From a virus (Duplodnaviria > Heunggongvirae > Uroviricota > Caudoviricetes), in IMG/VR virus record IMGVR_UViG_2529292726_000021: a stretch of 42,272 nt of DNA; one strand, given 5' to 3'. The notes under the pieces are model-generated. The model saw nothing but the letters and a program-made list of their open reading frames with translations. It was not told the origin of the DNA and ran no database searches. Within the stretch, counting starts at the first letter, position 1; the number at the start of each line of letters is the position of its first letter. Made by a program: the position numbers and the translations under genes. This document shows, piece after piece, positions 8,656 through 10,571 of this stretch.

Positions 8656-9174
8656 TTAAAACGGAAGGATTCGTTCAACCCAATCGAAGAAAATAAGTAT
8701 TTTTCTACCGTCTTCCAACTTAAGTGTGACTAGACAGGCGTCAACGCCATCTGACGTTCCCTCAATTTCGCGACCGTCTGCCATGTAGACCCTTATAGAT
8801 TTGCCGTTTTGGTAAGCCTGACGACATATCTTAAAAAAGTCACGACGTGATGGCTGATTAACCATCTGTTCATTGTTTAGCGTTAGTCGACCTGTGAATG
8901 AAGTGTCAACCTCTTCTATGCCCGACTCAATTGTGCTAATGCGCTCAAGAGGGAGCCTTATACGATTTGTGTTGCTAAGCGGATCTGGTGTGAGGTTCAG
9001 CTTATTTCTTGCGCTCAATAGCCCGTAGACATACATGCAAAACACTTGGCCGTCTTCGAGAGTGACTCTTACAGGAAATTTTGCACTCCGCCAGAAGAGC
9101 AAGGTGCGCTCAGCATGTTCGTAGTCTCGCGGCCAGACTTCAGCCGGTATGCCGTAGGTGATGTCTTTAACCAT
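8656..9174 (-). CDS. hypothetical protein (172 aa) with internal repeat
   Basis: ATG with AAGG upstream; two related segments (VRVTLEDGQVFCMYVY and VTLKLEDGRKILIFFDWV). Confidence 0.55.
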   Translation of the reverse strand: MVKDITYGIPAEVWPRDYEHAERTLLFWRSAKFPVRVTLEDGQVFCMYVYGLLSARNKLNLTPDPLSNTNRIRLPLERISTIESGIEEVDTSFTGRLTLNNEQMVNQPSRRDFFKICRQAYQNGKSIRVYMADGREIEGTSDGVDACLVTLKLEDGRKILIFFDWVERILPF

Positions 9175-9276
9175 AGTCTACCTTTTTAAGTCTTTTTTGG
9201 TCATTATATACATCTCTATGATGCGTAGACAGACTAACCGTACATTCCACCAAAAATTGATTATGGAATAAGTTTC

Positions 9277-10077
9277 ATGAAGAATGGGGTGAATAAAAAA
9301 TACTCATTAGCATTGTTAATAGCGGCTTTACTATTAACAGGTTGTGATTCTGATGAAGAGCGAGCCATAGATCTAGTTGAAAAGGATATTCGCTCTACAC
9401 TGCTAGATCCTGATGCTGGTCGGTTCACGAATATGCGAGCTATTCAGTTAGGTGAAAATAGCTATTCATATATGGTATGTGGAGAGGTGAATGGTAAAAA
9501 CGTCTTGAACGCCTATACAGGTGCGACCGCATTCAATGCACACATCTTTGATGTTCGTGAACGTAACCCGATTGTATTCGTTGCAATGGATAAAAGTACC
9601 AACTCGGCAAGAGAACGATTACGTTTTGAACGCCAAAATCTAGCATGTAAAGAAAATGGTGTGAAACTTTATCTGGAAAACGAATCTAAAATCAGGAAGG
9701 AAAAAGAGAAAATAGATGATTTAAAAAAAACTCCATTAGGTCAGGCTGTGTTTGATGCTGCAAGTGATTCGACATATGTGAGTAGAGAGTTGGGCGAATC
9801 GAGAGGTGTTAGTGAAGTGTATGCAAGAGAAAATGATAAATATGCTCTTGTTAGCGTCACCAATTATGACACTCCTGACTTTTACAAATTTAGGAAAAAA
9901 GACAACGGTGAACTAGAACCTGTTAGGGGACTGTCTTATACCGGCTATCCATTCGCGGTTACACTGTGCCATTCTGAACAAACAGATTATGACAAATGTA
10001 TAACAGAAGAAGAAATCAAGTTGCTTCGAGACGAAAAGAATAAGCTCGATGATTTTGTCGTGCCACCAGAAGAATAA
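9277..10077 (+). CDS. putative lipoprotein (266 aa)
   Basis: N-terminus MKNGVNKKYSLALLIAALLLTGC has a signal peptide and lipobox (LTGC) with Cys at residue 23; AT-rich. Confidence 0.65.
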   Translation: MKNGVNKKYSLALLIAALLLTGCDSDEERAIDLVEKDIRSTLLDPDAGRFTNMRAIQLGENSYSYMVCGEVNGKNVLNAYTGATAFNAHIFDVRERNPIVFVAMDKSTNSARERLRFERQNLACKENGVKLYLENESKIRKEKEKIDDLKKTPLGQAVFDAASDSTYVSRELGESRGVSEVYARENDKYALVSVTNYDTPDFYKFRKKDNGELEPVRGLSYTGYPFAVTLCHSEQTDYDKCITEEEIKLLRDEKNKLDDFVVPPEE

Positions 10078-10137: not shown

Positions 10138-10171
10138 ACCCTCGACAAATCTTTCTGATATTGTCGAGGGT
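10138..10171. terminator. hairpin between convergent genes
   Basis: ACCCTCGACAA-atctttctgata-TTGTCGAGGGT between the lipoprotein stop (10077) and the minus-strand gene stop (10190). Confidence 0.5.
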
Positions 10172-10189: not shown

Positions 10190-10543
10190 CTACTTATACC
10201 CTAATTCTTTACAGCTTTCTTCAAAAACCTCTTTAGGTAGGATATTTAGATCTACAATAGTGTTGCTGTTCTTGGTTAACACGTCATTGTAAGGAATTTG
10301 TACCCATCTGTAACCTGTATACCCACCATATGAGTTAGTCGCATTTAGTTTGAAACAATATGTATTGCTACCTTCAACGTGATCTGGGAATTTGTATTTA
10401 GCTGCATCCGGGGCCAGTAATTGTTTTTCTATAATATTTTTAATGTAATCTTGCTGAACGGGCGTTAAAGGTTTGGCTACTGTATTTCCTATATAGAATG
10501 CCAAGAGTGCCATAGAAAAAAATTGAATTTTTTTAGACTTCAT
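10190..10543 (-). CDS. putative secreted small protein (117 aa)
   Basis: From ATG 10543 the N-terminus MKSKKIQFFSMALLAFYIGNTVA is a typical signal peptide; the track start at 10564 is a TTG without SD. Confidence 0.55.
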   Translation of the reverse strand: MKSKKIQFFSMALLAFYIGNTVAKPLTPVQQDYIKNIIEKQLLAPDAAKYKFPDHVEGSNTYCFKLNATNSYGGYTGYRWVQIPYNDVLTKNSNTIVDLNILPKEVFEESCKELGYK

Positions 10544-10571
10544 CTTTTTAACCGTCTTTGACAATGAGAGT

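What the first reader, a model, noticed from the sequence alone, without database searches (positions are those of the whole stretch)
9277..10077. Prophage-encoded lipoprotein as a candidate superinfection-exclusion factor
There is a clear signal peptide with lipobox LTGC. Phage lipoproteins such as T5 Llp and phi80 Cor block the phage's own receptor; at 266 aa this one is larger and may act on a different envelope target.
Basis: partly seen in the sequence, partly recalled or inferred. Interest (0 to 1): 0.55.

Follow-up and report, generated by a model that had tools for sequence, protein, structure and literature searches.

The report
Phage-plasmid accessory lipoprotein, function untested
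The gene is a real, exported lipoprotein carried as an optional extra by an SSU5-like phage-plasmid and switched on while the phage is dormant; it is a reasonable but untested candidate for protecting its host against other phages, and it is unrelated to the known receptor blockers Llp and Cor.

Summary
ORF 9277..10077 (+) encodes 266 aa with a textbook lipoprotein signal peptide (lipobox L20-T21-G22-C23), kept in every homologue down to 39% identity.

The element is not an integrated prophage. It is an SSU5-like phage-plasmid, 100% identical to Escherichia phage PhiR41_1 over the 2 kb compared.

The gene behaves as a moron:
- Its GC content is low (38.8% against 46.8% for the window).
- It sits in a variable slot beside a FljA-like gene.
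- It is absent from most E. coli phage-plasmids that carry near-identical tail fibres.
- Its 99.2%-identical Cyrano orthologue is transcribed in the lysogen, ranking 9th of 123 genes in the B6 samples while structural genes stay silent.

The N-terminal domain has a cystatin/NTF2-like fold. It belongs to a large family with no Pfam model: small lipoproteins that sit in moron positions of temperate phages, four times exactly between the tail chaperone and tape-measure genes, where the HK97 exclusion gene 15 lies. Some relatives are fused to peptidoglycan-binding domains. The C-terminal domain has no relatives outside this family.

There is no similarity to Llp or Cor. Asp at +2 predicts inner-membrane retention in E. 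coli.

Post-adsorption superinfection exclusion is the best guess (about 0.4). Masking of the phage's own receptor is unlikely. Nothing has been tested functionally.

The parts
9277..10077 (+). Lipoprotein gene: 266-aa precursor, predicted mature protein 244 aa, 27.9 kDa, pI 4.9
   Evidence: ORF. 100% identical to the PhiR41_1 protein (annotated CDS XSB42490) and 99.2% to Cyrano CYRAN_115, 'Putative membrane lipoprotein'. Matches phrog_20234 over its full length. Mature-protein properties.
9277..9345 (+). Signal peptide (aa 1-22) with lipobox LTGC (aa 20-23, 9334-9345). Cys23 is the predicted lipidated first residue of the mature protein. Asp24 is the +2 residue.
   Evidence: Read directly from the sequence. 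G22 and C23 are invariant in 9 homologues. The +2 residue is Asp in P0001-P0005 (sources name E. coli and Salmonella) and Lys in P0006, P0008 (Cronobacter) and P0009.
9346..9660 (+). N-terminal domain (aa 24-128): a helix plus a 4-stranded sheet plus a helix, cystatin/NTF2-like. Signature DPxSAxF...VCGxVNGKNxxGAYxG...C, with C68 and C124 conserved.
9661..9732 (+). Basic linker (aa 129-152, pI 9.2) containing a long helix (aa 129-149)
   Evidence: AF2 secondary structure; pI.
9733..10074 (+). C-terminal domain (aa 153-266): helices followed by a beta sheet, with invariant C231 and C241. Found only in this phage-plasmid family.
   Evidence: AF2. No C-domain match outside the family among the 150 best hits of the search of 1.84 billion representatives, and none in the 5.8-billion word-indexed search or among PDB sequences. 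No detectable similarity to the N-terminal domain (hhalign).
9175..9276 (.). 102-bp divergent intergenic region shared with the FljA-like gene. It presumably holds the promoters.
   Evidence: Gene arrangement. The consensus scan found no + strand promoter here. Both flanking genes rise together in the LF82 lysogen.
10138..10171 (.). 11-bp-stem hairpin between the convergent lipoprotein gene and the 124-aa gene. Probably a terminator for both strands; no classical U tract.
   Evidence: The 118-nt stretch that contains it folds at -34.8 kcal/mol, z = -4.6 against shuffles. The consensus terminator scan did not call it.
10190..10564 (-). 124-aa secreted paralogue of the N-terminal domain. It has a Sec-type signal peptide but no lipobox Cys.
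   Evidence: BLASTP against the lipoprotein E = 4e-6, with both Cys aligned. phrog_2320 at 1.8e-24. Absent from Cyrano.
8656..9174 (-). Neighbour, not part of the protein: FljA-like gene (repressor of phase-1 flagellin family), divergently transcribed
   Evidence: PF03614 at 1.3e-68 and phrog_1444. It neighbours the lipoprotein gene in all contexts examined, with one extra gene between them in L003.

Best explanation
The gene is an accessory ('moron') gene of an SSU5-like phage-plasmid. Its product is exported, lipid-modified at Cys23 and held on a membrane facing the periplasm. In the E. coli allele this is predicted to be the outer face of the inner membrane, because of Asp at +2.

The protein has two domains, each with a conserved Cys pair. 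The N-terminal cystatin/NTF2-like module is shared with a very large family of small temperate-phage lipoproteins that lacks a Pfam model; some members are fused to peptidoglycan-binding domains. The C-terminal module is unique to this phage-plasmid lineage.

The gene is transcribed from the dormant phage-plasmid. My proposed function is to protect the lysogen's envelope against incoming phages after adsorption. It would act in the periplasm, interfering with the step at which the tail tip, tape-measure protein or wall-degrading activity crosses the peptidoglycan and inner membrane. It would not mask an outer-membrane receptor.

Shown: the gene, the signal and lipobox, the domain structure, family membership, accessory status, and expression in the lysogen.
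Inferred: which membrane it sits in, the disulfides, and the whole exclusion function and its mechanism.
For: Element: 100% identity to phage PhiR41_1 over the 2 kb compared, and all 130 E. coli matches lie on plasmids of about 105-115 kb.

Moron properties:
- 39 of 5426 complete E. coli genomes carry the gene, against 130 with a match to the 2-kb region that includes the neighbouring FljA-like gene and 111 with the same tail-tip region.
- The slot holds other genes in NZ_CP023851 and CMS-2020a.
- GC is 38.8% against 47-50% for the backbone genes.
- A strong hairpin follows the gene.

Expression: Cyrano CYRAN_115 (99.2% identical) has log2 fpkm about 4.8 in stationary LB and 8.0-9.3 in the B1/B6 samples and in macrophages. 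It ranks 9th of 123 genes in B6 (my count from the table), while terminase, capsid and tail genes stay at about 3-5 (PMC9928086 S1 Table).

Family context: all 12 N-domain relatives examined lie in phages, prophages or next to an integrase. Four sit exactly between the tail assembly chaperone and tape-measure genes: an Enterobacter prophage, a metagenomic prophage, ES18 gp20 (annotated 'possible moron') and Gordonia phage Zirinka gp16 on the opposite strand. That is the slot of the HK97 exclusion gene 15 (PMC3594210). Three others lie elsewhere among tail genes. One directly follows an S24 repressor gene.

Cell-wall link: relatives are fused to SPOR and SH3 domains, or overlap genes annotated as SPOR or peptidoglycan-binding.

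A second, soluble paralogue lies in the same slot.
Against: - No functional test exists for any member of either domain family.
- No match in PADLOC or to any annotated exclusion PHROG.
- No similarity to Llp or Cor.
- The fold match is generic.
- Expression is only 2.9-fold above background in stationary LB, below the authors' moron cut-off. It rises in the B samples and in macrophages, which fits host adaptation equally well.
- Most sister phage-plasmids do without the gene.
- The +2 sorting residue differs between lineages (Asp or Lys), so the membrane of residence is not conserved.
- Here the gene is not in the tail operon.
Confidence: 0.4

Rival explanations
1. Host-adaptation or virulence factor. 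The lipoprotein alters envelope properties to the benefit of the lysogen in the animal host (stress, serum, antimicrobial or lysozyme tolerance), in the manner of lambda Bor, with no role against phages.
For: The Cyrano orthologue rises about 16- to 25-fold from stationary LB to the B1/B6 samples and to intramacrophage bacteria in the adherent-invasive strain LF82. The same paper notes medium-induced prophage morons such as Bor. Cronobacter relatives of the element carry an Ivy lysozyme-inhibitor gene 6 kb upstream. The cystatin-like fold is typical of enzyme inhibitors. Carrier strains come mostly from humans and animals.
Against: No similarity to Bor/Iss, Lom, Ivy or any Pfam family. The N-domain family also occurs in Gordonia, Delftia and environmental prophages, and repeatedly beside tape-measure genes, a pattern a host-niche factor does not explain.
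Confidence: 0.25
2. Receptor masking as in T5 Llp or phi80/HK022 Cor. The lipoprotein binds and inactivates the outer-membrane receptor used by the element's own tail tip.
For: It is a phage lipoprotein expressed in the lysogen. Lineages with Lys at +2 would be sorted to the outer membrane.
Against: No sequence similarity to Llp or Cor. The mature protein is about four times their size. The E. coli allele has Asp at +2, predicting inner-membrane retention (established Lol-avoidance rule, cited from memory). The gene is 25 kb from J and the fibre gene, unlike llp next to oad. The 12 plasmids whose J C-terminus and fibre are 99.4-99.9% identical to the window all lack the gene, and only about 17 of the top 60 fibre matches carry it.
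Confidence: 0.1
3. Functional partner of the divergent FljA-like gene. Together they remodel flagella or motility: FljA-like shuts down flagellin synthesis and the lipoprotein acts on the periplasmic part of the flagellar apparatus.
For: The pair is adjacent in every lipoprotein-bearing element examined, from 39 to 100% identity. The two genes share a 102-bp control region and rise together in LF82.
Against: The FljA-like gene occurs without the lipoprotein in most E. coli elements, and other genes fill the slot. The whole backbone is collinear, so adjacency carries little weight. Relatives of the N-terminal domain have no flagellar context.
Confidence: 0.05
4. Lytic-cycle function: a spanin-like lysis protein or a virion assembly factor.
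For: Outer-membrane spanin subunits are lipoproteins. Relatives of the N-terminal domain lie inside tail operons.
Against: Cyrano has its own holin, endolysin, Rz and Rz1 genes next to the tail-fibre gene. The lipoprotein gene is dispensable in sister elements. It is transcribed while structural and lysis genes are silent. It lacks the Pro-rich short form of an outer-membrane spanin and the C-terminal transmembrane segment of a unimolecular spanin.
Confidence: 0.03

Closest known systems
HK97 gp15 (superinfection-exclusion moron; Cumby et al. 2012, summarised in PMC3594210)
   Same: An accessory envelope protein expressed from the dormant phage. Four relatives of the N-terminal domain occupy exactly the gp15 slot between the tail chaperone and tape-measure genes. 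The proposed mode of action is the same: blocking genome entry at the inner membrane or periplasm without touching the receptor.
   Different: gp15 is a small YebO-like inner-membrane protein, not a lipoprotein, and there is no sequence relationship (no Pfam hit). The window gene itself lies outside the tail operon.
T5 Llp and HK022/phi80/N15 Cor (FhuA-inactivating lipoproteins)
   Same: Phage-encoded lipoproteins made via signal peptidase II. They protect the cell that carries them.
   Different: Both precursors are 77 aa and target FhuA. Llp is encoded head-to-head with the receptor-binding gene. This protein is 266 aa, shares only the lipobox, is not linked to the tail-tip allele, and carries an inner-membrane retention signal in E. 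coli.
Ltp of Streptococcus phage TP-J34 (exclusion lipoprotein said to target the tape-measure protein; PMC3952083 for the family, target from my own knowledge)
   Same: A multi-domain lipoprotein tethered on the outer face of the cytoplasmic membrane and expressed in lysogens. It blocks DNA injection, not adsorption.
   Different: Ltp is built of helical helix-turn-helix-like repeats (my knowledge of the structure paper). This protein is alpha+beta, cystatin/NTF2-like. Gram-positive host.
ES18 gp20 and phrog_2320 (unnamed lipoprotein family of temperate phages)
   Same: True homologues of the N-terminal domain, with the motif DPxSAxF...VCGxVNxKNxxGxYxG...C. ES18 gp20 is already annotated 'possible moron; function unknown'.
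   Different: These are single-domain proteins with a median length of 133 aa. The window protein adds a linker helix and a C-terminal domain with no other relatives; only 15 of 226 members exceed 190 aa.
T4 Sp (inhibitor of the gp5 tail lysozyme; my own knowledge)
   Same: A possible mechanistic parallel: an envelope protein that stops the incoming tail from breaching the peptidoglycan. The inhibitor-type fold and the fusions to peptidoglycan-binding domains point this way.
   Different: No sequence relationship was tested or is known. Sp is a membrane protein of a virulent phage. This is an analogy only.

Membership tests
Bacterial lipoprotein (Lgt/LspA/Lnt substrate) | N-terminal signal peptide with a positive n-region, a hydrophobic core and a lipobox [LVI][ASTVI][GAS]C within about 35 residues | tested here: met
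   MKNGVNKKYSLALLIAALLLTGC. Gly-Cys is invariant in 9 homologues.
Bacterial lipoprotein (Lgt/LspA/Lnt substrate) | Acylation of the Cys and globomycin-sensitive processing in vivo | not testable with these tools
   Needs labelling or a globomycin experiment.
Moron (Juhala/Hendrix sense) | Present or absent between otherwise collinear phage genomes | tested here: met
   39 E. coli genomes carry the gene, against 111-130 with the flanking backbone. The slot is filled differently in NZ_CP023851 and CMS-2020a.
Moron (Juhala/Hendrix sense) | Base composition deviates from the surrounding genes | tested here: met
   GC 38.8% against 46.8% for the window and 47-50% for helicase, terminase, tape-measure and J genes.
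Moron (Juhala/Hendrix sense) | Own promoter and terminator | tested here: inconclusive
   A divergent 102-bp intergenic region, but no consensus promoter on the + strand. A strong downstream hairpin without a U tract.
Moron (Juhala/Hendrix sense) | Expressed from the repressed prophage | tested here: met
   Published RNA-seq of the 99.2%-identical Cyrano orthologue: 9th of 123 genes in the B6 samples while structural genes are silent, but only 2.9-fold above background in stationary LB.
T5 Llp / Cor receptor-blocking lipoproteins | Sequence homology to Llp or Cor | tested here: not met
   hhalign of both domain profiles against HK022 Cor and T5 Llp gives probability <=1.2%, aligning only the lipobox or a few residues. 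No annotated exclusion PHROG or Pfam hit.
T5 Llp / Cor receptor-blocking lipoproteins | Gene adjacent to, or co-varying with, the receptor-binding protein gene | tested here: not met
   25 kb from J and the fibre gene. Twelve plasmids with a 99.4-99.9% identical J C-terminus and fibre lack the gene. T5 llp is divergent from oad.
T5 Llp / Cor receptor-blocking lipoproteins | Inactivates the phage's outer-membrane receptor | not testable with these tools
   Needs adsorption and receptor-function assays. Asp at +2 argues against outer-membrane residence in E. coli (inference).
phrog_2320-type temperate-phage lipoproteins (N-terminal domain family; no Pfam model) | Signature DPxSAxF ... VCGxVN[GA]KNxxG[AG]YxG ... 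C, with the two Cys conserved | tested here: met
   phrog_2320 at 1e-19. D44, P45, C68, G69, N72, K74, N75, G78, Y80, G82, F86 and C124 are invariant or >=90% conserved across 38 diverse members. 2168 representative clusters match.
Cystatin/NTF2-like fold | A helix packed on a curved antiparallel sheet | tested here: met
Spanins (outer-membrane or unimolecular) | Encoded in the lysis cassette; a short Pro-rich lipoprotein, or a lipoprotein with a C-terminal transmembrane segment | tested here: not met
   Cyrano has Rz and Rz1 beside its holin and endolysin genes. This gene lies elsewhere, encodes 266 aa, and has an acidic C-terminus with no hydrophobic segment.
Known anti-phage defence systems (PADLOC) | Match to a PADLOC model | tested here: not met
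   No hit at E<=0.1.

The most novel reading that the evidence does not exclude
The N-terminal module defines a very widespread, unrecognised class of phage-encoded envelope proteins. It has more than 2000 clusters at 50% identity and runs from enterobacterial to Gordonia phages. It is repeatedly inserted next to the tape-measure gene and sometimes tethered to peptidoglycan. Members would block superinfection by inhibiting the tail's passage through the cell wall, for example by inhibiting virion-borne wall hydrolases or tape-measure insertion. The window protein would be a two-domain variant whose lineage-specific C-terminal domain sets a new specificity.
Probability: 0.2. Interest if true: 0.75.

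Novelty: new variant of a known kind. Interest (0 to 1): 0.45.

Why it matters
SSU5-like phage-plasmids are common in clinical and animal Enterobacteriaceae, and most of their accessory genes have no assigned function. This gene is one of the more strongly transcribed genes of the dormant element under infection-like conditions.

Its N-terminal domain links it to thousands of uncharacterised lipoproteins that sit in the classical moron slots of temperate phages across phyla. If the family excludes phages at the cell-wall or inner-membrane step, it would be a new and broadly distributed exclusion mechanism. That bears on phage host range, phage therapy and the competition between mobile elements.

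If the gene instead serves host adaptation, it is a lysogenic-conversion factor of pathogenic E. coli. In either case PhiR41_1 is recorded with E. coli K-12 MG1655 as host, so the test is simple.

Tried and rejected
- **Family databases.** Pfam, NCBIfam and PADLOC gave no meaningful family for the lipoprotein. The weak RP853, SA0632 and LptM hits are far below their cut-offs and reflect only the signal peptide or low complexity.
- **Internal duplication.** I suspected the C-terminal domain was a copy of the N-terminal one. hhalign gives probability 0.5%, so this is rejected at the sequence level.
- **C-terminal domain elsewhere.** None found among the 150 best hits, or among PDB sequences. The search oddly failed to re-list the known full-length homologues, so it is a weak negative.
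- **Homology to Cor, Llp or HK022 gp20** (a moron in the same K-I slot as the Fraca relative): none.
- **Promoter.** The consensus scan found none for the gene, and the intergenic alignment across lineages showed no convincing shared -35/-10.
- **Literature.** Nothing on this protein, on PhiR41_1 biology, or on FljA-like genes of SSU5-like elements.
- **Co-variation with the tail-tip allele.** Only weakly informative, because the E. coli elements share one tail-tip type at >=97% identity. It does show that the gene is dispensable for that type.
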